From NCBI GenBank assembly GCA_000002435.2, contig CM018793.1: a stretch of DNA of 64,000 nucleotides. One strand, 5' to 3'. A program made the translations under genes and the position numbers. The notes under the pieces were generated by a model, which was given only the letters and a program-made list of their open reading frames with translations, was not told the origin of the DNA and searched no databases. Of the stretch, positions 42,001-57,494 are shown piece after piece; position 1 is the first letter of the stretch; every line of letters starts with the position of its first letter. This stretch comes from Giardia intestinalis (lineage: Eukaryota).

Positions 42001-45000
42001 NNNNNNNNNNNNNNNNNNNNNNNNNNNNNNNNNNNNNNNNNNNNNNNNNNNNNNNNNNNNNNNNNNNNNNNNNNNNNNNNNNNNNNNNNNNNNNNNNNNN
42101 NNNNNNNNNNNNNNNNNNNNNNNNNNNNNNNNNNNNNNNNNNNNNNNNNNNNNNNNNNNNNNNNNNNNNNNNNNNNNNNNNNNNNNNNNNNNNNNNNNNN
42201 NNNNNNNNNNNNNNNNNNNNNNNNNNNNNNNNNNNNNNNNNNNNNNNNNNNNNNNNNNNNNNNNNNNNNNNNNNNNNNNNNNNNNNNNNNNNNNNNNNNN
42301 NNNNNNNNNNNNNNNNNNNNNNNNNNNNNNNNNNNNNNNNNNNNNNNNNNNNNNNNNNNNNNNNNNNNNNNNNNNNNNNNNNNNNNNNNNNNNNNNNNNN
42401 NNNNNNNNNNNNNNNNNNNNNNNNNNNNNNNNNNNNNNNNNNNNNNNNNNNNNNNNNNNNNNNNNNNNNNNNNNNNNNNNNNNNNNNNNNNNNNNNNNNN
42501 NNNNNNNNNNNNNNNNNNNNNNNNNNNNNNNNNNNNNNNNNNNNNNNNNNNNNNNNNNNNNNNNNNNNNNNNNNNNNNNNNNNNNNNNNNNNNNNNNNNN
42601 NNNNNNNNNNNNNNNNNNNNNNNNNNNNNNNNNNNNNNNNNNNNNNNNNNNNNNNNNNNNNNNNNNNNNNNNNNNNNNNNNNNNNNNNNNNNNNNNNNNN
42701 NNNNNNNNNNNNNNNNNNNNNNNNNNNNNNNNNNNNNNNNNNNNNNNNNNNNNNNNNNNNNNNNNNNNNNNNNNNNNNNNNNNNNNNNNNNNNNNNNNNN
42801 NNNNNNNNNNNNNNNNNNNNNNNNNNNNNNNNNNNNNNNNNNNNNNNNNNNNNNNNNNNNNNNNNNNNNNNNNNNNNNNNNNNNNNNNNNNNNNNNNNNN
42901 NNNNNNNNNNNNNNNNNNNNNNNNNNNNNNNNNNNNNNNNNNNNNNNNNNNNNNNNNNNNNNNNNNNNNNNNNNNNNNNNNNNNNNNNNNNNNNNNNNNN
43001 NNNNNNNNNNNNNNNNNNNNNNNNNNNNNNNNNNNNNNNNNNNNNNNNNNNNNNNNNNNNNNNNNNNNNNNNNNNNNNNNNNNNNNNNNNNNNNNNNNNN
43101 NNNNNNNNNNNNNNNNNNNNNNNNNNNNNNNNNNNNNNNNNNNNNNNNNNNNNNNNNNNNNNNNNNNNNNNNNNNNNNNNNNNNNNNNNNNNNNNNNNNN
43201 NNNNNNNNNNNNNNNNNNNNNNNNNNNNNNNNNNNNNNNNNNNNNNNNNNNNNNNNNNNNNNNNNNNNNNNNNNNNNNNNNNNNNNNNNNNNNNNNNNNN
43301 NNNNNNNNNNNNNNNNNNNNNNNNNNNNNNNNNNNNNNNNNNNNNNNNNNNNNNNNNNNNNNNNNNNNNNNNNNNNNNNNNNNNNNNNNNNNNNNNNNNN
43401 NNNNNNNNNNNNNNNNNNNNNNNNNNNNNNNNNNNNNNNNNNNNNNNNNNNNNNNNNNNNNNNNNNNNNNNNNNNNNNNNNNNNNNNNNNNNNNNNNNNN
43501 NNNNNNNNNNNNNNNNNNNNNNNNNNNNNNNNNNNNNNNNNNNNNNNNNNNNNNNNNNNNNNNNNNNNNNNNNNNNNNNNNNNNNNNNNNNNNNNNNNNN
43601 NNNNNNNNNNNNNNNNNNNNNNNNNNNNNNNNNNNNNNNNNNNNNNNNNNNNNNNNNNNNNNNNNNNNNNNNNNNNNNNNNNNNNNNNNNNNNNNNNNNN
43701 NNNNNNNNNNNNNNNNNNNNNNNNNNNNNNNNNNNNNNNNNNNNNNNNNNNNNNNNNNNNNNNNNNNNNNNNNNNNNNNNNNNNNNNNNNNNNNNNNNNN
43801 NNNNNNNNNNNNNNNNNNNNNNNNNNNNNNNNNNNNNNNNNNNNNNNNNNNNNNNNNNNNNNNNNNNNNNNNNNNNNNNNNNNNNNNNNNNNNNNNNNNN
43901 NNNNNNNNNNNNNNNNNNNNNNNNNNNNNNNNNNNNNNNNNNNNNNNNNNNNNNNNNNNNNNNNNNNNNNNNNNNNNNNNNNNNNNNNNNNNNNNNNNNN
44001 NNNNNNNNNNNNNNNNNNNNNNNNNNNNNNNNNNNNNNNNNNNNNNNNNNNNNNNNNNNNNNNNNNNNNNNNNNNNNNNNNNNNNNNNNNNNNNNNNNNN
44101 NNNNNNNNNNNNNNNNNNNNNNNNNNNNNNNNNNNNNNNNNNNNNNNNNNNNNNNNNNNNNNNNNNNNNNNNNNNNNNNNNNNNNNNNNNNNNNNNNNNN
44201 NNNNNNNNNNNNNNNNNNNNNNNNNNNNNNNNNNNNNNNNNNNNNNNNNNNNNNNNNNNNNNNNNNNNNNNNNNNNNNNNNNNNNNNNNNNNNNNNNNNN
44301 NNNNNNNNNNNNNNNNNNNNNNNNNNNNNNNNNNNNNNNNNNNNNNNNNNNNNNNNNNNNNNNNNNNNNNNNNNNNNNNNNNNNNNNNNNNNNNNNNNNN
44401 NNNNNNNNNNNNNNNNNNNNNNNNNNNNNNNNNNNNNNNNNNNNNNNNNNNNNNNNNNNNNNNNNNNNNNNNNNNNNNNNNNNNNNNNNNNNNNNNNNNN
44501 NNNNNNNNNNNNNNNNNNNNNNNNNNNNNNNNNNNNNNNNNNNNNNNNNNNNNNNNNNNNNNNNNNNNNNNNNNNNNNNNNNNNNNNNNNNNNNNNNNNN
44601 NNNNNNNNNNNNNNNNNNNNNNNNNNNNNNNNNNNNNNNNNNNNNNNNNNNNNNNNNNNNNNNNNNNNNNNNNNNNNNNNNNNNNNNNNNNNNNNNNNNN
44701 NNNNNNNNNNNNNNNNNNNNNNNNNNNNNNNNNNNNNNNNNNNNNNNNNNNNNNNNNNNNNNNNNNNNNNNNNNNNNNNNNNNNNNNNNNNNNNNNNNNN
44801 NNNNNNNNNNNNNNNNNNNNNNNNNNNNNNNNNNNNNNNNNNNNNNNNNNNNNNNNNNNNNNNNNNNNNNNNNNNNNNNNNNNNNNNNNNNNNNNNNNNN
44901 NNNNNNNNNNNNNNNNNNNNNNNNNNNNNNNNNNNNNNNNNNNNNNNNNNNNNNNNNNNNNNNNNNNNNNNNNNNNNNNNNNNNNNNNNNNNNNNNNNNN

Positions 45001-48000
45001 NNNNNNNNNNNNNNNNNNNNNNNNNNNNNNNNNNNNNNNNNNNNNNNNNNNNNNNNNNNNNNNNNNNNNNNNNNNNNNNNNNNNNNNNNNNNNNNNNNNN
45101 NNNNNNNNNNNNNNNNNNNNNNNNNNNNNNNNNNNNNNNNNNNNNNNNNNNNNNNNNNNNNNNNNNNNNNNNNNNNNNNNNNNNNNNNNNNNNNNNNNNN
45201 NNNNNNNNNNNNNNNNNNNNNNNNNNNNNNNNNNNNNNNNNNNNNNNNNNNNNNNNNNNNNNNNNNNNNNNNNNNNNNNNNNNNNNNNNNNNNNNNNNNN
45301 NNNNNNNNNNNNNNNNNNNNNNNNNNNNNNNNNNNNNNNNNNNNNNNNNNNNNNNNNNNNNNNNNNNNNNNNNNNNNNNNNNNNNNNNNNNNNNNNNNNN
45401 NNNNNNNNNNNNNNNNNNNNNNNNNNNNNNNNNNNNNNNNNNNNNNNNNNNNNNNNNNNNNNNNNNNNNNNNNNNNNNNNNNNNNNNNNNNNNNNNNNNN
45501 NNNNNNNNNNNNNNNNNNNNNNNNNNNNNNNNNNNNNNNNNNNNNNNNNNNNNNNNNNNNNNNNNNNNNNNNNNNNNNNNNNNNNNNNNNNNNNNNNNNN
45601 NNNNNNNNNNNNNNNNNNNNNNNNNNNNNNNNNNNNNNNNNNNNNNNNNNNNNNNNNNNNNNNNNNNNNNNNNNNNNNNNNNNNNNNNNNNNNNNNNNNN
45701 NNNNNNNNNNNNNNNNNNNNNNNNNNNNNNNNNNNNNNNNNNNNNNNNNNNNNNNNNNNNNNNNNNNNNNNNNNNNNNNNNNNNNNNNNNNNNNNNNNNN
45801 NNNNNNNNNNNNNNNNNNNNNNNNNNNNNNNNNNNNNNNNNNNNNNNNNNNNNNNNNNNNNNNNNNNNNNNNNNNNNNNNNNNNNNNNNNNNNNNNNNNN
45901 NNNNNNNNNNNNNNNNNNNNNNNNNNNNNNNNNNNNNNNNNNNNNNNNNNNNNNNNNNNNNNNNNNNNNNNNNNNNNNNNNNNNNNNNNNNNNNNNNNNN
46001 NNNNNNNNNNNNNNNNNNNNNNNNNNNNNNNNNNNNNNNNNNNNNNNNNNNNNNNNNNNNNNNNNNNNNNNNNNNNNNNNNNNNNNNNNNNNNNNNNNNN
46101 NNNNNNNNNNNNNNNNNNNNNNNNNNNNNNNNNNNNNNNNNNNNNNNNNNNNNNNNNNNNNNNNNNNNNNNNNNNNNNNNNNNNNNNNNNNNNNNNNNNN
46201 NNNNNNNNNNNNNNNNNNNNNNNNNNNNNNNNNNNNNNNNNNNNNNNNNNNNNNNNNNNNNNNNNNNNNNNNNNNNNNNNNNNNNNNNNNNNNNNNNNNN
46301 NNNNNNNNNNNNNNNNNNNNNNNNNNNNNNNNNNNNNNNNNNNNNNNNNNNNNNNNNNNNNNNNNNNNNNNNNNNNNNNNNNNNNNNNNNNNNNNNNNNN
46401 NNNNNNNNNNNNNNNNNNNNNNNNNNNNNNNNNNNNNNNNNNNNNNNNNNNNNNNNNNNNNNNNNNNNNNNNNNNNNNNNNNNNNNNNNNNNNNNNNNNN
46501 NNNNNNNNNNNNNNNNNNNNNNNNNNNNNNNNNNNNNNNNNNNNNNNNNNNNNNNNNNNNNNNNNNNNNNNNNNNNNNNNNNNNNNNNNNNNNNNNNNNN
46601 NNNNNNNNNNNNNNNNNNNNNNNNNNNNNNNNNNNNNNNNNNNNNNNNNNNNNNNNNNNNNNNNNNNNNNNNNNNNNNNNNNNNNNNNNNNNNNNNNNNN
46701 NNNNNNNNNNNNNNNNNNNNNNNNNNNNNNNNNNNNNNNNNNNNNNNNNNNNNNNNNNNNNNNNNNNNNNNNNNNNNNNNNNNNNNNNNNNNNNNNNNNN
46801 NNNNNNNNNNNNNNNNNNNNNNNNNNNNNNNNNNNNNNNNNNNNNNNNNNNNNNNNNNNNNNNNNNNNNNNNNNNNNNNNNNNNNNNNNNNNNNNNNNNN
46901 NNNNNNNNNNNNNNNNNNNNNNNNNNNNNNNNNNNNNNNNNNNNNNNNNNNNNNNNNNNNNNNNNNNNNNNNNNNNNNNNNNNNNNNNNNNNNNNNNNNN
47001 NNNNNNNNNNNNNNNNNNNNNNNNNNNNNNNNNNNNNNNNNNNNNNNNNNNNNNNNNNNNNNNNNNNNNNNNNNNNNNNNNNNNNNNNNNNNNNNNNNNN
47101 NNNNNNNNNNNNNNNNNNNNNNNNNNNNNNNNNNNNNNNNNNNNNNNNNNNNNNNNNNNNNNNNNNNNNNNNNNNNNNNNNNNNNNNNNNNNNNNNNNNN
47201 NNNNNNNNNNNNNNNNNNNNNNNNNNNNNNNNNNNNNNNNNNNNNNNNNNNNNNNNNNNNNNNNNNNNNNNNNNNNNNNNNNNNNNNNNNNNNNNNNNNN
47301 NNNNNNNNNNNNNNNNNNNNNNNNNNNNNNNNNNNNNNNNNNNNNNNNNNNNNNNNNNNNNNNNNNNNNNNNNNNNNNNNNNNNNNNNNNNNNNNNNNNN
47401 NNNNNNNNNNNNNNNNNNNNNNNNNNNNNNNNNNNNNNNNNNNNNNNNNNNNNNNNNNNNNNNNNNNNNNNNNNNNNNNNNNNNNNNNNNNNNNNNNNNN
47501 NNNNNNNNNNNNNNNNNNNNNNNNNNNNNNNNNNNNNNNNNNNNNNNNNNNNNNNNNNNNNNNNNNNNNNNNNNNNNNNNNNNNNNNNNNNNNNNNNNNN
47601 NNNNNNNNNNNNNNNNNNNNNNNNNNNNNNNNNNNNNNNNNNNNNNNNNNNNNNNNNNNNNNNNNNNNNNNNNNNNNNNNNNNNNNNNNNNNNNNNNNNN
47701 NNNNNNNNNNNNNNNNNNNNNNNNNNNNNNNNNNNNNNNNNNNNNNNNNNNNNNNNNNNNNNNNNNNNNNNNNNNNNNNNNNNNNNNNNNNNNNNNNNNN
47801 NNNNNNNNNNNNNNNNNNNNNNNNNNNNNNNNNNNNNNNNNNNNNNNNNNNNNNNNNNNNNNNNNNNNNNNNNNNNNNNNNNNNNNNNNNNNNNNNNNNN
47901 NNNNNNNNNNNNNNNNNNNNNNNNNNNNNNNNNNNNNNNNNNNNNNNNNNNNNNNNNNNNNNNNNNNNNNNNNNNNNNNNNNNNNNNNNNNNNNNNNNNN

Positions 48001-51000
48001 NNNNNNNNNNNNNNNNNNNNNNNNNNNNNNNNNNNNNNNNNNNNNNNNNNNNNNNNNNNNNNNNNNNNNNNNNNNNNNNNNNNNNNNNNNNNNNNNNNNN
48101 NNNNNNNNNNNNNNNNNNNNNNNNNNNNNNNNNNNNNNNNNNNNNNNNNNNNNNNNNNNNNNNNNNNNNNNNNNNNNNNNNNNNNNNNNNNNNNNNNNNN
48201 NNNNNNNNNNNNNNNNNNNNNNNNNNNNNNNNNNNNNNNNNNNNNNNNNNNNNNNNNNNNNNNNNNNNNNNNNNNNNNNNNNNNNNNNNNNNNNNNNNNN
48301 NNNNNNNNNNNNNNNNNNNNNNNNNNNNNNNNNNNNNNNNNNNNNNNNNNNNNNNNNNNNNNNNNNNNNNNNNNNNNNNNNNNNNNNNNNNNNNNNNNNN
48401 NNNNNNNNNNNNNNNNNNNNNNNNNNNNNNNNNNNNNNNNNNNNNNNNNNNNNNNNNNNNNNNNNNNNNNNNNNNNNNNNNNNNNNNNNNNNNNNNNNNN
48501 NNNNNNNNNNNNNNNNNNNNNNNNNNNNNNNNNNNNNNNNNNNNNNNNNNNNNNNNNNNNNNNNNNNNNNNNNNNNNNNNNNNNNNNNNNNNNNNNNNNN
48601 NNNNNNNNNNNNNNNNNNNNNNNNNNNNNNNNNNNNNNNNNNNNNNNNNNNNNNNNNNNNNNNNNNNNNNNNNNNNNNNNNNNNNNNNNNNNNNNNNNNN
48701 NNNNNNNNNNNNNNNNNNNNNNNNNNNNNNNNNNNNNNNNNNNNNNNNNNNNNNNNNNNNNNNNNNNNNNNNNNNNNNNNNNNNNNNNNNNNNNNNNNNN
48801 NNNNNNNNNNNNNNNNNNNNNNNNNNNNNNNNNNNNNNNNNNNNNNNNNNNNNNNNNNNNNNNNNNNNNNNNNNNNNNNNNNNNNNNNNNNNNNNNNNNN
48901 NNNNNNNNNNNNNNNNNNNNNNNNNNNNNNNNNNNNNNNNNNNNNNNNNNNNNNNNNNNNNNNNNNNNNNNNNNNNNNNNNNNNNNNNNNNNNNNNNNNN
49001 NNNNNNNNNNNNNNNNNNNNNNNNNNNNNNNNNNNNNNNNNNNNNNNNNNNNNNNNNNNNNNNNNNNNNNNNNNNNNNNNNNNNNNNNNNNNNNNNNNNN
49101 NNNNNNNNNNNNNNNNNNNNNNNNNNNNNNNNNNNNNNNNNNNNNNNNNNNNNNNNNNNNNNNNNNNNNNNNNNNNNNNNNNNNNNNNNNNNNNNNNNNN
49201 NNNNNNNNNNNNNNNNNNNNNNNNNNNNNNNNNNNNNNNNNNNNNNNNNNNNNNNNNNNNNNNNNNNNNNNNNNNNNNNNNNNNNNNNNNNNNNNNNNNN
49301 NNNNNNNNNNNNNNNNNNNNNNNNNNNNNNNNNNNNNNNNNNNNNNNNNNNNNNNNNNNNNNNNNNNNNNNNNNNNNNNNNNNNNNNNNNNNNNNNNNNN
49401 NNNNNNNNNNNNNNNNNNNNNNNNNNNNNNNNNNNNNNNNNNNNNNNNNNNNNNNNNNNNNNNNNNNNNNNNNNNNNNNNNNNNNNNNNNNNNNNNNNNN
49501 NNNNNNNNNNNNNNNNNNNNNNNNNNNNNNNNNNNNNNNNNNNNNNNNNNNNNNNNNNNNNNNNNNNNNNNNNNNNNNNNNNNNNNNNNNNNNNNNNNNN
49601 NNNNNNNNNNNNNNNNNNNNNNNNNNNNNNNNNNNNNNNNNNNNNNNNNNNNNNNNNNNNNNNNNNNNNNNNNNNNNNNNNNNNNNNNNNNNNNNNNNNN
49701 NNNNNNNNNNNNNNNNNNNNNNNNNNNNNNNNNNNNNNNNNNNNNNNNNNNNNNNNNNNNNNNNNNNNNNNNNNNNNNNNNNNNNNNNNNNNNNNNNNNN
49801 NNNNNNNNNNNNNNNNNNNNNNNNNNNNNNNNNNNNNNNNNNNNNNNNNNNNNNNNNNNNNNNNNNNNNNNNNNNNNNNNNNNNNNNNNNNNNNNNNNNN
49901 NNNNNNNNNNNNNNNNNNNNNNNNNNNNNNNNNNNNNNNNNNNNNNNNNNNNNNNNNNNNNNNNNNNNNNNNNNNNNNNNNNNNNNNNNNNNNNNNNNNN
50001 NNNNNNNNNNNNNNNNNNNNNNNNNNNNNNNNNNNNNNNNNNNNNNNNNNNNNNNNNNNNNNNNNNNNNNNNNNNNNNNNNNNNNNNNNNNNNNNNNNNN
50101 NNNNNNNNNNNNNNNNNNNNNNNNNNNNNNNNNNNNNNNNNNNNNNNNNNNNNNNNNNNNNNNNNNNNNNNNNNNNNNNNNNNNNNNNNNNNNNNNNNNN
50201 NNNNNNNNNNNNNNNNNNNNNNNNNNNNNNNNNNNNNNNNNNNNNNNNNNNNNNNNNNNNNNNNNNNNNNNNNNNNNNNNNNNNNNNNNNNNNNNNNNNN
50301 NNNNNNNNNNNNNNNNNNNNNNNNNNNNNNNNNNNNNNNNNNNNNNNNNNNNNNNNNNNNNNNNNNNNNNNNNNNNNNNNNNNNNNNNNNNNNNNNNNNN
50401 NNNNNNNNNNNNNNNNNNNNNNNNNNNNNNNNNNNNNNNNNNNNNNNNNNNNNNNNNNNNNNNNNNNNNNNNNNNNNNNNNNNNNNNNNNNNNNNNNNNN
50501 NNNNNNNNNNNNNNNNNNNNNNNNNNNNNNNNNNNNNNNNNNNNNNNNNNNNNNNNNNNNNNNNNNNNNNNNNNNNNNNNNNNNNNNNNNNNNNNNNNNN
50601 NNNNNNNNNNNNNNNNNNNNNNNNNNNNNNNNNNNNNNNNNNNNNNNNNNNNNNNNNNNNNNNNNNNNNNNNNNNNNNNNNNNNNNNNNNNNNNNNNNNN
50701 NNNNNNNNNNNNNNNNNNNNNNNNNNNNNNNNNNNNNNNNNNNNNNNNNNNNNNNNNNNNNNNNNNNNNNNNNNNNNNNNNNNNNNNNNNNNNNNNNNNN
50801 NNNNNNNNNNNNNNNNNNNNNNNNNNNNNNNNNNNNNNNNNNNNNNNNNNNNNNNNNNNNNNNNNNNNNNNNNNNNNNNNNNNNNNNNNNNNNNNNNNNN
50901 NNNNNNNNNNNNNNNNNNNNNNNNNNNNNNNNNNNNNNNNNNNNNNNNNNNNNNNNNNNNNNNNNNNNNNNNNNNNNNNNNNNNNNNNNNNNNNNNNNNN

Positions 51001-51832
51001 NNNNNNNNNNNNNNNNNNNNNNNNNNNNNNNNNNNNNNNNNNNNNNNNNNNNNNNNNNNNNNNNNNNNNNNNNNNNNNNNNNNNNNNNNNNNNNNNNNNN
51101 NNNNNNNNNNNNNNNNNNNNNNNNNNNNNNNNNNNNNNNNNNNNNNNNNNNNNNNNNNNNNNNNNNNNNNNNNNNNNNNNNNNNNNNNNNNNNNNNNNNN
51201 NNNNNNNNNNNNNNNNNNNNNNNNNNNNNNNNNNNNNNNNNNNNNNNNNNNNNNNNNNNNNNNNNNNNNNNNNNNNNNNNNNNNNNNNNNNNNNNNNNNN
51301 NNNNNNNNNNNNNNNNNNNNNNNNNNNNNNNNNNNNNNNNNNNNNNNNNNNNNNNNNNNNNNNNNNNNNNNNNNNNNNNNNNNNNNNNNNNNNNNNNNNN
51401 NNNNNNNNNNNNNNNNNNNNNNNNNNNNNNNNNNNNNNNNNNNNNNNNNNNNNNNNNNNNNNNNNNNNNNNNNNNNNNNNNNNNNNNNNNNNNNNNNNNN
51501 NNNNNNNNNNNNNNNNNNNNNNNNNNNNNNNNNNNNNNNNNNNNNNNNNNNNNNNNNNNNNNNNNNNNNNNNNNNNNNNNNNNNNNNNNNNNNNNNNNNN
51601 NNNNNNNNNNNNNNNNNNNNNNNNNNNNNNNNNNNNNNNNNNNNNNNNNNNNNNNNNNNNNNNNNNNNNNNNNNNNNNNNNNNNNNNNNNNNNNNNNNNN
51701 NNNNNNNNNNNNNNNNNNNNNNNNNNNNNNNNNNNNNNNNNNNNNNNNNNNNNNNNNNNNNNNNNNNNNNNNNNNNNNNNNNNNNNNNNNNNNNNNNNNN
51801 NNNNNNNNNNNNNNNNNNNNNNNNNNNNNNNN
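1..51832. other. Assembly gap or masked region (run of N)
   Basis: Every base from 1 to 51832 is 'n'. Real sequence begins at 51833 (ctgctggg...). Nothing can be called here. Confidence 0.99.
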
Positions 51833-53194
51833 CTGCTGGGGCTGTACATGAGCAGCCATTACCCCCAATATGCCTTAGCGGTACCTTGAGGATCTACTAG
51901 TGTGCCTAGGGGGTTACTACATGCCACACGACGCTGCTGAGCATTGGATGCCCCTGGTACCAGGAAGTACTTATTATTCTCATTAACAGCGGTACAGACA
52001 CCGTTGGCTGCTGTCTTGCACATGATTCCGGTGATTGACACTATACAACCACCCATTAATGAAGTATCCGTAGTACAGATGTACATAATGGTTATTCACA
52101 GTATTACTTTGACCCACTCACAACACACTCCATCATTGGTATCATATTTGTCTCTCCACAGTAGAACAGTAGTGCTTTGTGGTGCCCTGATCATCATTAT
52201 CATGGCATCACAAGCACCAGAGGTACCCCCCAGGCAGTATCATCCTCACATTTTGTACATGTAACAGGACTGGTACCCTCTGCTTGATAGTTCCTTACAG
52301 CAGTACACTTGAAAGTACTGGCCTCCATTTGCACTTAGCACCCCTCGATGCCCCCATTGTTTGTGTCACTACAGAGAGCACTTCTCCGGGTCTATGACCT
52401 CACAGGAAGAACCCTGCCTTAGGCAGGCATTTCCTCAGCAGTTTGTCTAGCATGTGGCACAGTTGCCCGTGACAGGGGGTGCATGTTACTGACCACTCCG
52501 TACTTTGTATCCCTCCAGGCATTCTTGCAATTGGTTGCACTTCTGCTCTTTAGCAAGCTTCAGCCGCAATGCCTTTGTTCTTTGGTTCTGAATCCGACGC
52601 TGCGGGATCACTGCACAAACGACACACGTTGTCTTCGGTCATAAAGAGACCGTTATCAGCTCCTTGACACCCGGCGTGTTCTTGTCACACGAGGTCGAGG
52701 TTCCATCAAGGTCGTCTCGGGTCTTACTGTATCACAAGCTGTGCACTTCGGCTTCTTGGTAGTCGAATCAACTTCACACTGGGTACATGCTGATCTATCG
52801 TGTTGCAGTCCCTACAAGTTCCGACTCTGGGTCAGCATAAGTGTTTCCAGTGCACTCATTACTATTCACGCATGCATTATCCTTCAGGAACGTATTTCCT
52901 TACAAGAGGTACACTGGGTCGCCGACGTCTCACAGGTCAGGCAAGAGTCCTTGCACTTCTCACATGCGCCGTAACTATTTGAAGTACCCTCTTGCATGCA
53001 GTACACGTGGCAGCCCTGTTACTGTCTGGCGCGTGCATGTGGCGCAGTCTCCACTCCTTAATCCATTCGCTCCTGTGGCATCATGACAGAGTATGCACTC
53101 CCCACCAGGGGTCACCTTGTCTGCCCATTCTGGAATATGTACTGACTTCTGTTTACAAGCAGTGCACAGTCCTCCCTCAGCCTTTGTGCATATC
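51833..53194 (-). pseudogene. Decayed VSP-family pseudogene (partial, runs into the N gap); many frameshifts and stops
   Basis: Reverse-complement translation gives recognisable VSP segments, for example ORF 51859..52086 (-) '...MGGCIVSITGIMCKTAANGVCTAVNENNKYFLVPGASNAQQRRVACSNPLGTLV', which aligns to 'YMGGCYKVDTVPGQHMCKTAANGVCTAVNANNRYFIVPGATNQNQSVLACSNSLGTLV' of the 618-aa unit. The frame is broken repeatedly. For example 52200-52290 reads 'acatgtacaaaatgtgaggatgatactgcctgggggg' against the intact 'tgcaccaagatctgtgaagatgatactgcctgtggagga'. The 5' end at 53150-53194 is identical to the unit junction at 55473-55511 (agtgagatatgcacaaaggctgagggaggactgtgcactgcttg). Confidence 0.7.
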
Positions 53195-53196
53195 TC

Positions 53197-53229
53197 ACTC
53201 CACTATCATACTATCACCCTCTATCACAC
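53197..53229 (-). repeat. Inter-unit short tandem repeat, GTGATAR-type (about 3 copies) in the VSP 3' UTR or spacer
   Basis: Plus strand reads 'cactccactatcatactatcaccctctatcacacc', which on the sense strand is GTGATAGAGGGTGATAGTATGATAGTGGAGTG. This is near-identical to 55505..55538. Confidence 0.6.
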
Positions 53230-53240
53230 CATTGTACAGC

Positions 53241-53247
53241 ATTCACT
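53241..53247 (-). terminator. Putative Giardia polyadenylation signal AGTGAAT (AGTRAAY) after the remnant stop
   Basis: Plus strand 'attcact' 53241-53247 is the reverse complement of AGTGAAT. It lies 8 nt 3' of the stop codon TGA (plus 'tca' 53255-53257). Confidence 0.55.
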
Positions 53248-53254
53248 ACCCAAG

Positions 53255-53350
53255 TCACGCCTTCCCCTGCACACGAACCACCAGCAGAGGAAGCCCACGA
53301 GGCCCCCACGACGAGCGACCACAGCCACGAGACCCCACGCGATGGAGACC
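53255..53350 (-). pseudogene. Remnant of a VSP 3' end (diverged, frameshifted TM helix + CRGKA + TGA)
   Basis: Reverse complement reads '...tgggggcctcgtgggcttcctctgctggtggttcgtgtgcaggggaaggcgtga'. Apart from a 1-nt deletion this matches the intact '...ggg ggc ctc gtg ggc ttc ctc tgc tgg tgg ttc gtg tgc agg ggg aag gcg tga' (GLVGFLCWWFVCRGKA*). Upstream of about 53350 the similarity to VSP stops. Confidence 0.65.
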
Positions 53351-54230
53351 CGCATTGGAGAGCCCGCCCCTGGTGTGGTACTTCATAGACACACAGGAGG
53401 TCCCACTGCTGTCTAGACTGTACTCCCCAATACGATACCACTTACCGCCTACACTTCAACGCTCATCTCGAACCACACAAGCATACTTGATTCGCTCCGA
53501 TCGCCCTAGCGACGAAGACGGACCTTCTAATCGTCGATACAACACCCTAACACACCTCGTTGTTACTTGACCTCAATACGTGTCACATACATACAGGTGA
53601 CAATGATCGCAGGCACAAGATGCATAGCCCGACCCCTGCACTTCAGAATGCATATGCGGGGTCCCCCGCCAAACATGACGGCGCCACTCCCACCACAGCT
53701 GCTGCAGAAACATATATAATCTCGATAGATAAGGGCTATCAAACCTGAGACGTCGGAGAGTCCGCAATCGGAAGAAAGAACGGAAGGCCTGACGCGTAAG
53801 AGTAGCAAATGCGCATCAATCCGTGAGAGAACCTTCGTGCGCGCCACGAGAAGCCCAGTAGAGCTCTTACAATAGCCAAACGCCTCACAGGAGATGACTA
53901 TTGAACCTGATAACATAATGAGCGATTAGTGAGCACACCACAGCGGGACCATATGACGAGCCAGAACCATGACACTCAGAAAATTCAAGCAAAGTTGTTT
54001 CCTTAGTAGATAGGTGCTACTATTGTTCGTCAACCTGCAGAGTTAACACTACAGCGGTCCAGATGGATACAGCAGCCAGTTTTGAGACAGTGACAAGTGT
54101 CGTGGATCTTTCATCCGAACTTCTAGATTATCCAATATGAATGTCACTGAGTCGTCAAACCCTAACGAATAAATAACCGAACATAACTCACCTACGGGAC
54201 CAGCAATAATGCAGTGTAAGCAAACGCGCA
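53351..54230. other. Non-VSP DNA of unknown origin (about 880 bp, lower GC) interrupting a VSP unit
   Basis: No CXXC-rich reading frame on either strand. Only short ORFs of 62-117 aa with no recognisable family. The base composition is clearly less GC-rich than the flanks. One side is the truncation point of the 378-aa VSP fragment (54231..54240) and the other is the TM/CRGKA remnant (53350). Confidence 0.5.
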
Positions 54231-55511
54231 TCATCCTCTCTTCTGCTGAGCAGCAGAGTCCCCGGGAATCTTGAAGTAGCGCCCGACCGGTGTGGTGCAG
54301 AACCCACTTGGAGCCGCAGAGCACATGAGGTTGCCAGGAGCCTTCGACACATCATAGCAACCACCCATATAGAGGAAGTAGTTGTTGGTGCACCGCGTAC
54401 ATACGCCATCGGCGCAGGTATTACCTGCAAGTGCATTGGTGCACTTCCCATTAATAGGGCCATAGCCGGCGCCAACACACTTTGAACAGTAAGAGAGCAT
54501 GCTGCCGTCGTTGCCGACCACGATGGCGTCGCAGGCCCCTGCTGTCCCTCCACATGCAGTCTCATCTTCACAGGTCTTTGTACATGTGAGGTCGCTAGGT
54601 TCTCCGCTGGGTCTGTAGTTGGGCTTACATTCAGTGCATTTGAGGGACCCCACGCCGCCTGTGCACTCGGCACAGCCTGGAATCCCACTTGTCTCGTCAT
54701 CACAGAGAACGCATGTCTTAGGCGGGCCATCCTTAAGGAAGTACCCCGGCATGCATCTTGTACATGTGTTGATTTGACCCGCTGTTCCGCACTCTGCGCA
54801 GTTTCCTGTGCAGGCCTCGCAGGCGTTTCCGTTGACTTTATACCCGTCGACACAAGCCTCGCAGGTGCCTTTTGCGGTGCACAGCTTGCAGTTCTGGACT
54901 CCGCCCTTACCATTGTCGCCGCACTGCACGCACTTCGAGGCGTCGTAGAAGTGCGTCTTGCCCACTTTGCACTCGGCCTCATCAACACAGGTCGTTGTCC
55001 CATCCAGCTCGTCTCTGACCGTCTTACTACCGCAGTCGGTGCACTTCGGCTTTCCCGTGGCGTCGTCGTATGCACACGCGGTGCATCCTTGTATCTCACT
55101 GCAGGCCTTACAGGTCCAGGTCTTCTTGTCCGCATAGTTACCATTGTCACATCCACCAGCATCTACACAAGTGTTACCATCCTTCAGGTACTTCCCCTCA
55201 ACGCAGGCGGTACACTGAGTCGGAGTATCAGCTGAGCAAGCAGAGCAGCCGTCTCCGCACTTCACACATGCACTGTCCTTCGTAACGAACCCTGCTTGAC
55301 ACTCTGTACACGTGGCCGGTCCGCTAGTGCCCGTGTGGGAGCATTCTGAGCATCCAGCGACTCCCATGACCCCGTTTCTATCTGTCGTATCAGAGCACAG
55401 TATGCACTCACTACCCTTCTCTGGTGTTGCAGCCGGGTTCTTGAACAGGCCGTTATCTGCCTTACAAGCAGTGCACAGTCCTCCCTCAGCCTTTGTGCAT
55501 ATCTCACTCCA
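54231..55511 (-). pseudogene. Truncated VSP unit with no start codon and no C-terminal TM/CRGKA; the ORF ends ...GDSAAQQKRG*
   Basis: The ORF track's 54231..55367 (-) 378 aa is CXXC-rich and contains 'NNYFLYMGGCYDV' (a GGCY motif). The frame stays open upstream to the in-frame TAG at 55512-55514 (...*WSEICTKAEGGLCTACKADNGLFKNPAATPEKGSECILCSD...). Its last 110 or so codons are nearly identical to codons of the complete gene at 61250-61584. The ORF then terminates after AAQQ, where the complete gene continues SVLACGNP.... Downstream DNA is unrelated. Confidence 0.75.
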
Positions 55512-55538
55512 CTATCATACTATCACCCTCTATCACAC
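55507..55538 (-). repeat. Inter-unit short tandem repeat, GTGATAR-type (about 3 copies)
   Basis: Plus strand reads 'cactccactatcatactatcaccctctatcacac'. It lies between the stop of the 618-codon unit (55563) and the TAG/TGG/AGT/GAG/ATA/TGC start of the next unit. Confidence 0.6.
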
Positions 55539-55548
55539 ATTGTACAGC

Positions 55549-55555
55549 ATTCACT
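55549..55555 (-). terminator. Putative polyadenylation signal AGTGAAT, 8 nt after the TGA of the 618-codon VSP unit
   Basis: Plus strand 'attcact' 55549-55555 and stop 'tca' 55563-55565. Sense strand reads ...AAG GCG TGA cttgggtAGTGAATgctgtaca. Confidence 0.6.
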
Positions 55556-55562
55556 ACCCAAG

Positions 55563-57419
55563 TCACGCCTTCCCCCTGCACACGAACCACCAGCAGAGGA
55601 AGCCCACGAGGCCCCCCACGACAGCGATGACAGCCACGGAGATCCCTGCTATGGCACCAGTACTGAGGCCGCTTCTGTTGCCCCCGCTGGGCTTGGTGGA
55701 CACGCACGCCTCACCCTCCAGCCTGTAGTCGTCCCCACACTGGCCGCACTTGTTCTCCTCGCTGCACCTGACGCACCCGTCGATATTGCAGGCGATGCAC
55801 TTCGTTCCGTCTGTGTTCGGCCTCTGGTCTTTACTGGTACAGGCCTCGCACTTATCGCCTGCTCCACAGTGCGAGCATCCGTCAACGGTACATGCGAAGC
55901 ACCCGCTCCCAGCCAGGTTGGGCTTGTTGTTGTTGGTACACGCTGTACACACAGCAGCAGTCATACCAGTCTCAGATGGAGCTGCTGGGGCCGTACATGC
56001 CGAACAGCCATCTACCCCCACATATGCCTTAGAGGTATCACCAGTGCCTACTAGTGTGCCAAGGGAGTTGCTACATGCCAATACAGACTGATTCTGATTG
56101 GTTGCCCCAGGGACTATGAAGTACCTATTGTTGGCATTAACAGCAGTACAGACACCGTTGGCTGCTGTCTTGCACATATGTTGTCCAGGTACTGTATCAA
56201 CCTTGTAACAACCTCCCATATACAAGAAGTAGTTGTTAGTGCATTGTGTACATACACCTTGATCACATTGATTATTTGCTTTAGCACTATTACACTTCCC
56301 ATCTATAGGATACGTATTAGCTTCTCCACAGTATGAGCAATAATGATGCTCTACACCCTTATCATCAATCACTATTGCATCGCAGGCACCAGAAGTTCCT
56401 CCACAGGCAGTATCATCTTCACAGATCTTGGTGCATGTGACAGAGCCAGTACTGCCCTCCTTGCGATAGTTAGGCTTACAGTCAGTGCACTTGAAAGCAC
56501 CGTTGTTAGAGCAGACACTGCAGCCTTCGCGACCCTTATCGTCTACGCTATCGCATGGGACGCACTTCTTCCCCTGTTGATCTGTAGTAGTTACTAAGAA
56601 GTATCCAGTCTTGCAGGTTTCACACTTATTTGGATCACCAGCAACAGAGCATGTGGCACAGTTATCACCACACTTGTCTGTACATGTACTAGTACCACTA
56701 TCAAAGAAGTATCCATCGAGACAGGCTGAGCAGGTTGGATTGTCACTTCCTGTTTTCGTACATGTCTTGCAGTTGGCCTTTCCTTCGTTACCAAGAGTTG
56801 AATCTGTCACATCACTACAAAGAGCACACGTTTTGTCCTCCTTCATAAATAAGGCCTCGTCAGCGCCCTCGCATCCTTCAAGCGTCTTCGCCACGCAGGT
56901 CGATGTCCCGTCGAGGGCCGTCCTGGGGGTCTTATTGGTCCCGCAGTTAGTGCACTTCGGCTTCCCCGTGGCCTTGTCGAAGGAGCATGCCGTGCACTCT
57001 GCGTGTATCGTACTACATGCCTTGCATGTTCCCGACTCCGGGTCAGCATAAGTGTTTCCATCGCATCCAGTATCTTGTACACATTGATTACTCTTCAGGT
57101 ACTTCCCCTCTGGGCACGATGTACAATGATTCTGACCACTTCCATCGCAGGTCAGACAAGCTTCATTACATTTGACACATGTCTGAGAGTTCTTGTAGTA
57201 TCCATCTTGGCACTCTGTACACGTGGCAGGTCCTGGACTACTGTCTGACTTGGTACACTGTGCGCAGTTAGCCACCCCTGTATATCCATCTGCCCCATTG
57301 ACATCATGACAGAGGATGCACTCACTACCAGGCTTCTGAGGTGTAACTGGGTTCTTGAACAGGCCGTTATCTGCTTTACAAGCAGTGCACACTCCTCCCT
57401 CAGCCTTTGTGCATATCAC
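55563..57419 (-). CDS. VSP-family ORF, 618 codons, intact frame with C-terminal TM + CRGKA but no ATG or signal peptide (startless cassette or young pseudogene)
   Basis: Protein ends '...NRSGLSTGAIAGISVAVIAVVGGLVGFLCWWFVCRGKA'. It has many CXXC motifs and a GGCY motif 'NNYFLYMGGCYKV'. The first codon reported as M is GTG (57417-57419 plus 'cac'). It is preceded in frame by AGT, TGG, TAG (stop at 57426-57428). Immediately 5' are the 3' UTR repeats and the stop of the upstream unit. No hydrophobic signal peptide. Confidence 0.6.
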   Translation of the reverse strand: MICTKAEGGVCTACKADNGLFKNPVTPQKPGSECILCHDVNGADGYTGVANCAQCTKSDSSPGPATCTECQDGYYKNSQTCVKCNEACLTCDGSGQNHCTSCPEGKYLKSNQCVQDTGCDGNTYADPESGTCKACSTIHAECTACSFDKATGKPKCTNCGTNKTPRTALDGTSTCVAKTLEGCEGADEALFMKEDKTCALCSDVTDSTLGNEGKANCKTCTKTGSDNPTCSACLDGYFFDSGTSTCTDKCGDNCATCSVAGDPNKCETCKTGYFLVTTTDQQGKKCVPCDSVDDKGREGCSVCSNNGAFKCTDCKPNYRKEGSTGSVTCTKICEDDTACGGTSGACDAIVIDDKGVEHHYCSYCGEANTYPIDGKCNSAKANNQCDQGVCTQCTNNYFLYMGGCYKVDTVPGQHMCKTAANGVCTAVNANNRYFIVPGATNQNQSVLACSNSLGTLVGTGDTSKAYVGVDGCSACTAPAAPSETGMTAAVCTACTNNNKPNLAGSGCFACTVDGCSHCGAGDKCEACTSKDQRPNTDGTKCIACNIDGCVRCSEENKCGQCGDDYRLEGEACVSTKPSGGNRSGLSTGAIAGISVAVIAVVGGLVGFLCWWFVCRGKA

Positions 57420-57420
57420 A

Positions 57421-57470
57421 CTCCACTATCACTATCACCCATTATCACCCACTATCACCTTCTATCACAC
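57421..57470 (-). repeat. Inter-unit short tandem repeat, GTGATAR-type (about 5 copies)
   Basis: Plus strand reads 'ctccactatcactatcacccattatcacccactatcaccttctatcacac' (units ccactatcac / tatcac / ccattatcac / ccactatcac / cttctatcac). Copy number differs from the other spacers. Confidence 0.65.
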
Positions 57471-57480
57471 ATTGTACAGC

Positions 57481-57487
57481 ATTCACT
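57481..57487 (-). terminator. Putative polyadenylation signal AGTGAAT after the TGA of the 1024-codon unit
   Basis: Plus strand 'attcact' 57481-57487 and stop 'tca' 57495-57497. Confidence 0.6.
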
Positions 57488-57494
57488 ACCTAAG

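What the first reader, a model, noticed from the sequence alone, without database searches (positions are those of the whole stretch)
53351..54230. About 880 bp of unrelated, lower-GC DNA has replaced the distal third of a VSP unit
The fragment 55511->54231 stops at ...AAQQ. An intact unit has about 200 more codons before the TM helix. A diverged TM/CRGKA/polyA/repeat remnant reappears at 53350->53197. Between them lies sequence with no VSP character, no long ORF, no obvious terminal repeats and no target-site duplication that I can see. It could be a fragment captured during double-strand-break repair, a degenerate mobile-element piece, or an unannotated non-coding RNA gene. It is the only non-VSP sequence inside the array.
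Basis: seen in the sequence. Interest (0 to 1): 0.5.

Follow-up and report, generated by a model that had tools for sequence, protein, structure and literature searches.

The report
Orphan DNA inside a broken Giardia VSP pseudogene
In a silent tandem array of surface-antigen (VSP) pseudogenes of Giardia intestinalis WB, one unit has lost about 440 bp and instead carries about 815 bp of featureless non-coding DNA; this looks like an ordinary recombination scar, or possibly an assembly error beside a scaffold gap, and not like a gene or a mobile element.

Summary
The non-VSP stretch is 53428-54242 (815 bp), not 53351-54230.

The window is chromosome 5 of the PacBio assembly of G. intestinalis WB. 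Window positions 1-51832 are a scaffold gap, so the feature lies 1.6-2.4 kb from a contig end.

VSP unit 4 (55511->54243) is annotated in GenBank as 'High cysteine protein' KAE8304682.1. It breaks off exactly after ...AAQQ. About 442 positions of a VSP 3' profile are missing. A frameshifted TM/CRGKA tail resumes at 53427->53255.

The 815 bp matched nothing I could search:
- no VSP, Pfam or Rfam similarity, no tRNA, and no Giardia ncRNA processing motif
- no protein homologue for its longest ORF
- no terminal repeats or target-site duplication, and no coding periodicity
- folding no more stable than shuffled sequence
- no match in 85 kb of Giardia DNA from other isolates, or in plasmids, E. coli or phages

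Its GC content (48%) matches bulk Giardia DNA.

The best reading is a non-functional breakpoint scar in a recombining pseudogene array (confidence 0.55). The main rival is a contig-end assembly artefact (0.25). I could not determine where the DNA came from, because no tool searches the Giardia genome or its retrotransposons. Interest is low.

The parts
1..51832 (.). Run of N. This is a scaffold gap in the WB PacBio assembly. The real sequence in the window starts at 51833, in the middle of a VSP unit.
   Evidence: One search shows a single N run covering 1-51832. The assembly paper PMC7000408 says contigs were stitched with Ns sized by the optical map and then gap-filled with PBJelly.
51833..53202 (-). 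Unit 5: an old, decayed VSP pseudogene, cut off by the gap. It has several frameshifts and in-frame stops, 50% GC, and only 40-70% amino-acid identity to any of 123 VSPs.
   Evidence: frames -1/-2/-3 alternate, with an in-frame stop at 52096-52098. GC content.
53203..53254 (-). Inter-unit spacer after the tail remnant. It holds the poly(A) signal AGTGAAT (reverse complement of 53241-53247) and the GTGATAG-type spacer repeat.
   Evidence: It aligns with the spacers at 55.5, 57.4 and 60.6 kb.
53255..53427 (-). Remnant of a VSP 3' end: stalk, TM helix, CRGKA and stop. It is split over at least three frames by single-base indels.
   Evidence: nhmmer profile positions 639-799, E 1.9e-26. tblastn hits in frames -3 and -1. 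In the roughly 190 nt conserved part of the cassette that spans this remnant, the spacer and the first bases of unit 5 (about 53153-53345), there are 4 single-base indels against 2 substitutions versus the 55.5 kb cassette.
53428..54242 (.). The finding itself: 815 bp of orphan, apparently non-coding DNA. GC is 48% and the + strand is A-rich (AT skew +0.21). I detected no relative anywhere I could search.
54243..55511 (-). Unit 4: a VSP pseudogene truncated after ...PGDSAAQQ. The ORF 54234-55367 (plus stop at 54231-54233) reads through into the orphan DNA (KRG*). It is annotated as 'High cysteine protein' KAE8304682.1 / XP_037902139.1.
   Evidence: exact match to P0121.
54243..54584 (-). A recently shared tract. 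These 342 nt differ at 3 positions from the first VSP (61245-61586). The identity stops exactly at the junction with the orphan DNA.
   Evidence: Upstream of 54584, unit 4 instead matches the old-assembly paralogue XP_001703944.1 (P0122).
55563..57419 (-). Unit 3: an open 618-codon VSP unit with no signal peptide and no Inr, ending in CRGKA.
57495..60569 (-). Unit 2: an open 1024-codon VSP unit with no signal peptide, ending in CRGKA.
60639..62885 (-). The first VSP of the array. It is complete, with signal peptide MFQLIPLFVASA..., the Inr TAATGTT (reverse complement of 62881-62887) and a CRGKA tail. It equals KAE8304683.1 / XP_001705078.1.
   Evidence: (P0001, 100% identity).

Best explanation
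**What it is.** The 815 bp (53428-54242) is real but functionless DNA. It marks a non-homologous breakpoint inside a transcriptionally silent linear array of VSP pseudogenes on chromosome 5 of G. intestinalis WB.

**How it arose.** An illegitimate recombination or break-repair event removed about 440 bp of unit 4, from just after ...AAQQ to just before the membrane-proximal stalk. That left 815 bp of non-VSP DNA of ordinary Giardia composition in their place. The DNA is either filler captured from elsewhere or a leftover of former inter-array DNA.

**Consequences.**
- Unit 4 now reads through three codons (KRG) to a stop.
- It has no TM anchor or CRGKA tail in frame, no signal peptide and no poly(A) signal nearby. 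It cannot make a VSP, yet it is annotated as a 'High cysteine protein'.

**Surrounding recombination.**
- The last 342 nt of unit 4 are 99% identical to the first VSP of the array, and that identity stops exactly at the junction.
- The upstream part of unit 4 matches another paralogue.
- The tail/spacer cassette on the far side is nearly identical to its neighbour cassette.
- The orphan DNA has no partner, so it is a heterology that such exchange cannot cross.

**Shown versus inferred.** Shown: the anatomy, the truncation relative to intact relatives, the mosaic structure and the absence of gene-like or element-like features. Inferred: the type of event, its timing and its lack of function.
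For: **Identity of the locus.**
- The first VSP is 100% identical to KAE8304683.1 and unit 4 is identical to KAE8304682.1, both on the 4,018,654-bp WB scaffold.
- The array matches the published 'linear arrays'. The first gene has Inr TAATGTT and a signal peptide. The downstream units lack both and are separated by about 70-bp spacers (PMC2996952; PMC7000408).

**Truncation.**
- The break is exact at 54243/54242.
- 442 profile positions are missing and 815 nt are unmatched.
- The P15 VSP (L002) carries the unit-4 body and the missing C-terminus contiguously.

**Mosaic structure.**

**No function-like features in the insert.**
- No Rfam hit or tRNA, no Pfam hit, and no hit for the longest ORF against 1.84 billion proteins.
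- Ten ORFs are absent from the 15-billion-protein collection.
- Folding z-scores are +2.0 and +1.7.
- The 3-base periodicity score is 1.9, against 4-16 for most coding segments tested (lowest values 1.7 and 2.7) and 1.1-1.8 for intergenic DNA.
- There is no poly(A) signal, Inr, C box or ncRNA motif, and no repeats or TSD.

**Signs that this contig end is real DNA.**
- GC of 48% and normal homopolymer content are typical of Giardia DNA.
- The neighbouring unit 5 is a genuinely old pseudogene. It has nonsense substitutions as well as frameshifts and its GC has drifted to 50%. The contig end is therefore not simply junk.

**Precedent.** C-terminally truncated pVSPs, and HCPs that are really VSP pseudogenes, are described for WB (bioRxiv 10.1101/2022.03.07.483299).
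Against: - **No source or second copy was found.** The Giardia genome itself could not be searched, so neither 'captured filler' nor 'ancestral leftover' is demonstrated.
- **Position next to a gap.** The junction lies 2.4 kb from a contig end that abuts a scaffold gap closed or extended with PBJelly.
- **Indel-rich differences.** In the conserved cassette just left of the insert there are 4 single-base indels against 2 substitutions, and 3 of the 4 change a single-base run length (two in G5-G6 runs, one G to GG). This pattern fits residual PacBio consensus error better than natural decay.
- **No independent assembly of the junction.** The old Sanger assembly's version of unit 4 (XP_001703836.1) degenerates about 200 nt before the junction.
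- **Abrupt loss of identity.** Near-perfect identity that stops dead at the junction is also what a chimeric join would produce.
- **Two unreliable negatives.** The two concatenated-ORF searches are not trustworthy, because a built-in positive control failed.
Confidence: 0.55

Rival explanations
1. **Assembly artefact.** The last 2.4 kb of the contig before the scaffold gap (51833-54242) would be a chimeric or poorly supported extension. It could come from a PBJelly overhang, a chimeric long read, or a consensus of mis-mapped paralogous reads. Under this reading, the junction between unit 4 and the 815 bp does not exist in the genome, and unit 4 really continues into a normal VSP 3' end.
For: - Window 1-51832 is N.
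- The assembly paper describes stitching with Ns, PBJelly gap closing, and frameshifts from PacBio homopolymer errors. Those errors were corrected only where at least 10 Illumina reads agreed.
- Everything to the right of 54243 is clean open reading frame. Everything to the left is unmatched or frameshifted.
- The conserved cassette left of the insert differs from its neighbour by 4 single-base indels and only 2 substitutions.
- 99% identity to the first VSP stops dead at the junction.
- No protein from any other assembly carries the junction or any ORF of the insert.
Against: - The assembly had about 200x PacBio coverage and Quiver polishing. BridgeMapper reported no misassemblies, and the scaffolds agree with the optical map.
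- Unit 5 carries nonsense substitutions and a drifted GC content, which consensus errors do not produce.
- The 815 bp has normal complexity, normal homopolymer content and Giardia-like GC.
- It is not vector, E. coli, phage or other prokaryotic contamination.
- Even under a chimera, the left junction (orphan DNA next to a VSP tail) would still need an explanation.
Confidence: 0.25
2. **Mobile-element relic.** The 815 bp would be a degenerate, non-coding piece of a mobile element. Candidates are the long untranslated part of the telomere-associated non-LTR elements GilM/GilT, the dead element GilD, or other subtelomeric repeat DNA. It would have been inserted or captured at a break in the array.
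For: - Retrotransposon relics and 'gene-free subtelomeric' sequence are reported next to VSP genes in WB.
- RT remnants lie between some VSP pairs, and GilM copies occupy unassembled parts of chromosome 5.
- The array runs into a gap 'at long repeats'.
- Non-coding parts of such elements would escape every protein-based test used here.
Against: - There are no inverted or direct terminal repeats, no target-site duplication, no poly(A) or A-rich tail, and no tandem repeats.
- There is no RT, endonuclease or any other Pfam signal in six frames at E<=10.
- The longest ORF has no homologue.
- About 440 bp of VSP is missing, so this is not a simple insertion.
- There is no match in 85 kb of VSP-neighbourhood DNA from isolates DH and P15 and an ENA assembly.
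Confidence: 0.1
3. **Functional RNA or regulatory DNA.** The stretch would hold an unannotated functional RNA gene, or a regulatory or boundary element of the array.
For: It is the only non-VSP DNA in the visible array, and homologous exchange stops at its edge. Rfam covers Giardia-specific RNAs poorly.
Against: - There is no Rfam match at E<=10 across the whole 12.2 kb, and no tRNA.
- Both strands fold less stably than shuffled controls, with z-scores of +2.0 and +1.7.
- The conserved Giardia ncRNA 3' processing motif TCCTTTACTCAA is absent from the insert, even allowing 3 mismatches.
- There is no C box, Inr or poly(A) signal.
- No related sequence was found in other Giardia loci, so there is no sign of conservation.
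Confidence: 0.03
4. **Reversed reading.** The 815 bp would be a fragment of an ordinary gene, or of its decayed pseudogene, that was there first, and the VSP pieces were inserted around it.
For: - About 81% of the Giardia genome is coding, so a random piece of Giardia DNA is likely to be genic.
- GC of 48% resembles ordinary Giardia genes.
- The minus-strand frame 2 is open for 69 + 38 + 120 codons with few stops.
Against: - There is no Pfam hit in any frame.
- The 120-codon ORF has no hit among 1.84 billion representative proteins, which include the Giardia proteomes.
- There is no 3-base periodicity.
- tblastx against 85 kb of Giardia DNA gives nothing significant.
- The broader six-frame protein search was also negative, but it is unreliable.
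Confidence: 0.05

Closest known systems
C-terminally truncated VSP pseudogenes and 'High cysteine proteins' of G. intestinalis WB (Xu et al. 2020, PMC7000408; Rodriguez-Walker et al. 2022 preprint, 10.1101/2022.03.07.483299)
   Same: - It is a Cys-rich VSP-like ORF with no signal peptide and no TM/CRGKA tail in frame, with a TM/CRGKA remnant found nearby in other frames.
- It sits in an array of pVSPs.
- This very ORF is annotated as an HCP. The preprint argues that most HCPs are VSP pseudogenes.
   Different: The cases described in the preprint are explained by point mutations, frameshifts or contig ends. Here the distal part is physically replaced by 815 bp of unrelated DNA, which those papers do not describe.
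Linear arrays of vsp genes/pseudogenes in G. intestinalis (Adam et al. 2010, PMC2996952) and telomere-adjacent pseudo-VSP arrays in G. muris (Xu et al. 2020, PMC7641422)
   Same: - The units are head-to-tail with about 60-70 bp spacers.
- Only the first gene has an Inr and a signal peptide.
- The members are mosaics consistent with recombination or gene conversion.
- The array sits in a hard-to-assemble region.
   Different: Published arrays are described as uninterrupted VSP units, and an internal non-VSP island is not mentioned. The CRGKA tail identifies this array as G. intestinalis and not G. muris, whose tail is GCRGK.
Filler-DNA insertions at double-strand-break repair junctions (captured chromosomal, organellar or retroelement DNA), known from yeast, plants and mammals. 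This comparison rests on my own knowledge and was not checked here.
   Same: There is a deletion plus an unrelated insertion at one site, with abrupt junctions, no terminal repeats and no target-site duplication.
   Different: No donor locus has been identified, and 815 bp is long for filler DNA.
VSG pseudogene arrays of Trypanosoma brucei. This is a functional analogy, drawn in PMC7641422.
   Same: Both are silent, arrayed, partly degenerate antigen-gene copies that serve as a reservoir for segmental gene conversion.
   Different: The protein family and the expression mechanism are unrelated. The finding here concerns a non-antigen insert and not a donor segment.

Membership tests
Functional VSP (applied to unit 4, 55511->54243) | Cys-rich CXXC ectodomain with Pfam PF03302 similarity | tested here: met
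   Its 378-aa ORF is identical to P0121. The last 114 codons of unit 4 (the 342-nt tract) are identical to the first VSP, P0001, which carries PF03302. The Cys fraction is 13%.
Functional VSP (applied to unit 4, 55511->54243) | N-terminal signal peptide and Inr (PyAATGTT) at the start codon | tested here: not met
   The unit begins ...WSEICTKAEGG directly after the previous unit's spacer. The first Met is internal (55367). No PyAATGTT is present, whereas the first VSP has TAATGTT at 62881-62887.
Functional VSP (applied to unit 4, 55511->54243) | C-terminal TM helix followed by CRGKA and a poly(A) signal AGTRAAY | tested here: not met
   The ORF ends ...AAQQKRG*. The TM/CRGKA remnant lies 815 bp downstream, frameshifted. 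No AGTRAAY occurs in the insert.
Linear pseudo-VSP array (Adam 2010; Xu 2020) | Three or more head-to-tail VSP units with short spacers. The first has an Inr and signal peptide, and the downstream members lack them. | tested here: met
   Five units lie on the minus strand, with spacers of about 50-75 bp that carry the AGTGAAT signal and a 10-nt repeat.
Non-LTR retrotransposon relic (GilM/GilT/GilD) | Reverse transcriptase or endonuclease coding remnants | tested here: not met
   hmmscan of all six frames against Pfam at E<=10 gave 0 families. The longest ORF has no homologue.
Non-LTR retrotransposon relic (GilM/GilT/GilD) | 3' poly(A) or A-rich tail, and a target-site duplication flanking a clean insertion | tested here: not met
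   There are no flanking direct repeats and no tandem or simple repeats. About 440 bp of target sequence is missing and not duplicated.
Non-LTR retrotransposon relic (GilM/GilT/GilD) | Nucleotide similarity to the reference elements, including their long untranslated regions | not testable with these tools
   No Giardia genome or repeat library is searchable. The describing paper is not held.
DNA transposon / MITE | Terminal inverted repeats and a target-site duplication | tested here: not met
   The best inverted pairs are 10-18 nt at 76-92% identity, all of them internal or unrelated to the borders.
Structured non-coding RNA gene | Match to a curated RNA family, or folding more stable than shuffled sequence. 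For Giardia ncRNAs, also the 3' processing motif TCCTTTACTCAA. | tested here: not met
   Rfam gave 0 matches at E<=10 and ARAGORN found 0 tRNAs. Folding z-scores are +2.03 and +1.69. The motif is absent from the insert.
Spliceosomal intron | A clean insertion into an otherwise continuous ORF, with a 5' GTATGT and a 3' branch/AG consensus | tested here: not met
   In the sense of the array, the insert starts AAGAGAGG... About 147 codons of the VSP are missing, so the exons would not join.

The most novel reading that the evidence does not exclude
The junction would be real and young. The flanking 342-nt tract is still 99% identical to the first VSP of the array. The 815 bp would be filler DNA copied from a still-existing donor elsewhere in the WB genome during repair of a break in the pseudo-VSP array. 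If so, it would be a natural and datable record of non-homologous (end-joining or template-switching) repair operating alongside gene conversion in Giardia's antigen-gene reservoir. It would also show that a heterology can terminate conversion tracts and permanently remove a unit from the repertoire.
Probability: 0.15. Interest if true: 0.4.

Novelty: new member of a known kind. Interest (0 to 1): 0.15.

Why it matters
The practical value is mainly for annotation and assembly quality.

- **Annotation.** The gene annotated as 'High cysteine protein' KAE8304682.1 is a truncated VSP pseudogene that reads three codons into unrelated DNA. This supports the view that HCPs are not a real protein class.
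- **Assembly.** The feature flags a contig end beside one of the four remaining gaps of the WB reference as worth re-checking with reads.
- **Biology, if the junction is real.** It would be a small, concrete example of how units of the silent VSP reservoir are destroyed by illegitimate recombination while neighbouring segments are kept fresh by homologous exchange. It would give one datable junction for studying break repair in Giardia. It would not change current understanding of antigenic variation.

Tried and rejected
**Attempts to reach the WB locus or its genome.**
1. I tried to fetch the same locus or other WB DNA by exact protein look-up. The WB scaffolds are not in the position index.
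2. I scanned for exact k-mers of the insert in JGI metagenomes (two scans) and in bacterial and archaeal genomes. There were no hits, as expected for a Giardia-specific sequence, so this is uninformative about Giardia itself.
3. I tried to read the GilM/GilT/GilD paper, and I searched the library for those elements. The paper is not held and the library has nothing usable.

**Protein searches that are not usable as negatives.**
4. Six-frame ORFs of the insert, concatenated with X spacers, gave no hit in the 5.8-billion-protein search. I reject this as a reliable negative. A later concatenated query contained a genuine VSP piece and also returned nothing, although local phmmer gives E 5.6e-22 to a database member. 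Candidate selection is evidently swamped by long artificial queries.
Only the longest ORF could be searched, and it was negative.

**Readings considered and dropped.**
6. I considered that the insert might be a very diverged VSP. I rejected this because blastn, blastx, tblastn with 123 VSPs and an nhmmer profile all find unit 5 and the tail remnant but nothing in 53428-54242.
7. I treated the DH locus L001 as a syntenic orthologue, then rejected it. Only the GC-rich 5' flank and the N-terminus are shared, and the WB orthologues of its flanking genes lie on another scaffold.
8. I considered vector, bacterial or phage contamination and rejected it.
9. I did not use the bacterial promoter/terminator scan, because it does not apply to Giardia.
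Full report
**Source of the window.** Only 51833-64000 is real sequence. Positions 1-51832 are a single run of N.
- The first VSP of the array (60639-62885, minus strand) is 100% identical over 748 aa to KAE8304683.1 / XP_001705078.1 of Giardia intestinalis WB, recorded on a 4,018,654-bp scaffold.
- The ORF 54234-55367 (minus strand) is identical to KAE8304682.1 / XP_037902139.1, 'High cysteine protein', on the same scaffold.
- The window is therefore chromosome 5 of the PacBio reference GCA_000002435.2.
- The assembly paper states that contigs without overlap were 'stitched with Ns' sized by the optical map. Gaps were then treated with PBJelly and the scaffolds polished with Quiver. [quoted passage not shown]
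- The authors also found frameshifts from PacBio homopolymer errors. They corrected these only where at least 10 Illumina reads agreed.
- The finding thus lies 1.6-2.4 kb from a contig end that abuts a scaffold gap.

**Anatomy.** All VSP units are on the minus strand, so the array reads from high to low coordinates.
- *First VSP (62885->60639).* It is complete, with the initiator TAATGTT, a signal peptide and a CRGKA tail.
- *Units 2 and 3 (60569->57495 and 57419->55563).* These are open frames of 1024 and 618 codons. Each begins ...ICTKA..GGVCTACKADNGLFKNP right after the preceding spacer, with no signal peptide.
- This is the 'linear array' organisation described for WB: the first gene has an Inr, the downstream members lack one, and spacers are about 60 bp (PMC2996952). 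The reference annotation calls the downstream members pseudo-VSPs.
- *Unit 4 (55511->54243).* It stops being VSP exactly after ...PGDSAAQQ. Its alignment to the first VSP ends at 54243.
- *VSP tail remnant (53427->53255).* It follows the unmatched stretch and is split over frames -3 and -1, with a further frameshift in CRGKA.
- *Spacer and unit 5.* A normal spacer with the AGTGAAT signal follows. Then comes unit 5 (53202->51833), a decayed pseudogene that runs into the gap.

**Checking the observation.** Three independent tests agree that the stretch between unit 4 and the tail remnant has no VSP character.
- In-window blastn (word size 7) and blastx find the flanks only.
- tblastn with 123 Giardia VSPs covers 51862-53422 and 54234 onward, and leaves 53423-54233 empty.
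- An nhmmer profile of the last 750 nt of five VSPs hits 54397-54243 (profile positions 42-196, E 1e-37) and 53427-53255 (positions 639-799, E 2e-26). Nothing lies between them, even with --max and E<=100.

So about 442 profile positions (roughly 147 codons) are missing, and 815 nt (53428-54242) stand in their place. GC is 48%, against 56% in unit 4 but 50% in unit 5.

**Unit 4 is a truncated mosaic.**
- Its last 342 nt (54243-54584) differ at only three positions from the first VSP (61245-61586). After that, divergence is heavy.
- Upstream of that point, its protein equals the old-assembly VSP XP_001703944.1 (P0122) with one difference. P0122 is an intact 598-aa paralogue with its own, different C-terminus. 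The crossover lies in the conserved TCTKTCEDETACGGT motif.
- A single-copy VSP of isolate P15 (P0053, locus L002) is collinear first with the unit-4 body (803 nt, 71%, no gaps). It then continues for 594 nt with the C-terminus of the first VSP.
- An intact gene with the unit-4 body and the now-missing tail therefore existed, and the WB state is derived.

**What the 815 bp is not.**
- *Not VSP.* See the three tests above.
- *Not a known RNA.* There are no Rfam matches at E<=10 in the whole 12.2 kb and no tRNA. Both strands fold less stably than dinucleotide shuffles, with z-scores of +2.0 and +1.7. The Giardia ncRNA 3' processing motif is absent. There is no C box, Inr or poly(A) signal.
- *Not recognisably coding.* The longest stop-free stretch is 120 codons. 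There is no Pfam family in six frames at E<=10. That ORF has no hit among 1.84 billion representative proteins in an exhaustive HMMER search. The 3-base periodicity score is 1.9, against 4-16 for most coding segments tested and 1.1-1.8 for intergenic DNA.
- *Not element-like.* There are no terminal inverted or direct repeats, no target-site duplication and no tandem repeats.
- *Not contamination.* There is no match in plasmids, E. coli genomes or phages at blastn sensitivity, and no exact k-mer match in prokaryotic genomes or JGI metagenomes.
- *Not found elsewhere in accessible Giardia DNA.* Loci L001-L004 give 85 kb around VSP genes of isolates DH and P15 and an ENA assembly. They produce no blastn or tblastx hit.

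**A caveat on two negatives.** The searches with concatenated ORFs cannot be trusted. The second contained a genuine VSP fragment that should have hit database members at E about 1e-22, and it returned nothing.

**Real scar or assembly artefact?**

*For an artefact:*
- The feature sits next to the gap.
- Clean frames lie to the right of 54243, and unmatched or frameshifted sequence lies to the left.
- Near-perfect identity stops dead at the junction.
- In the roughly 190-nt conserved tail/spacer cassette just left of the insert, the differences from the neighbouring cassette are four single-base indels against two substitutions. Three of the four indels change a single-base run length (two in G5-G6 runs, one G to GG). 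This pattern fits residual PacBio consensus error better than natural decay.
- No independent assembly shows the junction. The old-assembly version of unit 4 (XP_001703836.1) degenerates into frameshifts about 200 nt before it. None of ten ORFs from the region is in the 15-billion-protein collection.

*For a real feature:*
- The assembly had 200x coverage, polishing, a misassembly check and optical-map agreement.
- Unit 5 has in-frame nonsense substitutions, only 40-70% identity to any VSP, and GC drifted to the genome level. Those are marks of true age and not of indel errors.
- The insert has ordinary complexity, homopolymer content and Giardia-like GC.
- Truncated pVSPs, and HCPs that are really pseudogenes, are documented elsewhere in this genome.

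I weigh this at about 0.55 real scar against 0.25 artefact. The remainder is split among special origins: element relic 0.10, gene fragment 0.05 and functional RNA 0.03.

**Most likely mechanism.**
- *Shown:* the distal 440 bp of a pseudo-VSP is replaced by 815 bp of non-homologous DNA. Segments on both sides have recently exchanged sequence with paralogues, and the exchange on the right ends at the heterology.
- *Inferred:* an illegitimate recombination or break-repair event created the junction. It was either a deletion with captured filler, or two deletions that left a piece of former inter-array DNA. The unit was thereby permanently disabled, with no TM anchor, no CRGKA and no poly(A) signal. 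Homologous conversion has since kept the VSP-homologous parts fresh, up to the point where homology ends.
- The 99% identity of the adjacent tract suggests one of two things. Either the junction is young, in which case a donor copy should still be recognisable in the genome, or an older heterology bounded a recent conversion. Only a genome-wide BLASTN and read mapping can separate these.

**Comparison and novelty.** The setting is the known linear pseudo-VSP array, and the truncated ORF is already annotated as an HCP. What the papers I read do not describe is a non-VSP island replacing part of a unit inside an array. It fails every tested criterion for a retrotransposon, DNA transposon, intron or structured RNA. 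Comparison with GilM/GilT/GilD could not be made. I class it as a new member of a known kind (a degenerate VSP pseudogene) and rate its interest as low.

Noticed in passing
window 1-51832: The first 81% of the window is one run of N, which is a scaffold gap of the WB reference. The contig resumes in the middle of a VSP unit, so the pseudo-VSP array continues into unassembled sequence.
   Followed up: partly
window 54231-55367 (-): The GenBank gene 'High cysteine protein' KAE8304682.1 is simply the truncated VSP unit 4, read from an internal Met through three codons of unrelated DNA (KRG) to a stop. The name suggests a protein class, but this is a pseudogene fragment.
   Followed up: yes
window 54243-55511 vs 61245-61586, and protein P0122: Unit 4 is a two-part mosaic. 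Its body equals the old-assembly paralogue XP_001703944.1. Its last 342 nt equal the first VSP of the array (3 mismatches). The switch lies inside the conserved TCTKTCEDETACGGT motif.
   Followed up: yes
window 53150-53345 vs 55459-55650: The conserved tail/spacer cassette left of the insert is almost identical to the next cassette but carries four single-base indels (two in G5-G6 runs, one G to GG, one inserted C) against two substitutions. These may be residual PacBio consensus errors in a repeat where Illumina correction could not work.
   Followed up: partly
window 62886-63846; L001 9235-10172: The 65%-GC, ORF-poor 5' flank of the first VSP is 91% identical to the 5' flank of a different VSP in isolate DH. 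The neighbouring genes of that DH locus have their WB orthologues on another scaffold (2.76 Mb). This GC-rich flank therefore appears to travel with VSP genes.
   Followed up: partly
L002 9410-11488 (isolate P15, ACVC01000194.1): A single-copy P15 VSP lies between ordinary genes. It is collinear with the N-terminus of the WB first VSP, then the body of unit 4, then the C-terminus of the first VSP. This suggests that the WB array members arose by duplication and reshuffling of one ancestral gene.
   Followed up: partly
window 57430-57468 and 60573-60617: The inter-unit spacers contain a 10-nt tandem repeat (CACTATCACC on the + strand). Its copy number differs between spacers: about 4 copies at these two, and a shorter version at 53.2 and 55.5 kb.
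   Followed up: no
window 55563-60569 (-): Units 2 and 3 stay open for 1024 and 618 codons although they lack a start context and a signal peptide. Unit 5, next to the gap, is riddled with stops and frameshifts. The units of one array therefore differ greatly in how decayed they are.
   Followed up: no
tool behaviour: Long artificial queries made of ORFs joined by X runs returned nothing from the search for homologous proteins, even when they contained a fragment with known database relatives (local phmmer E 5.6e-22). Negatives from such queries should not be trusted.
   Followed up: yes
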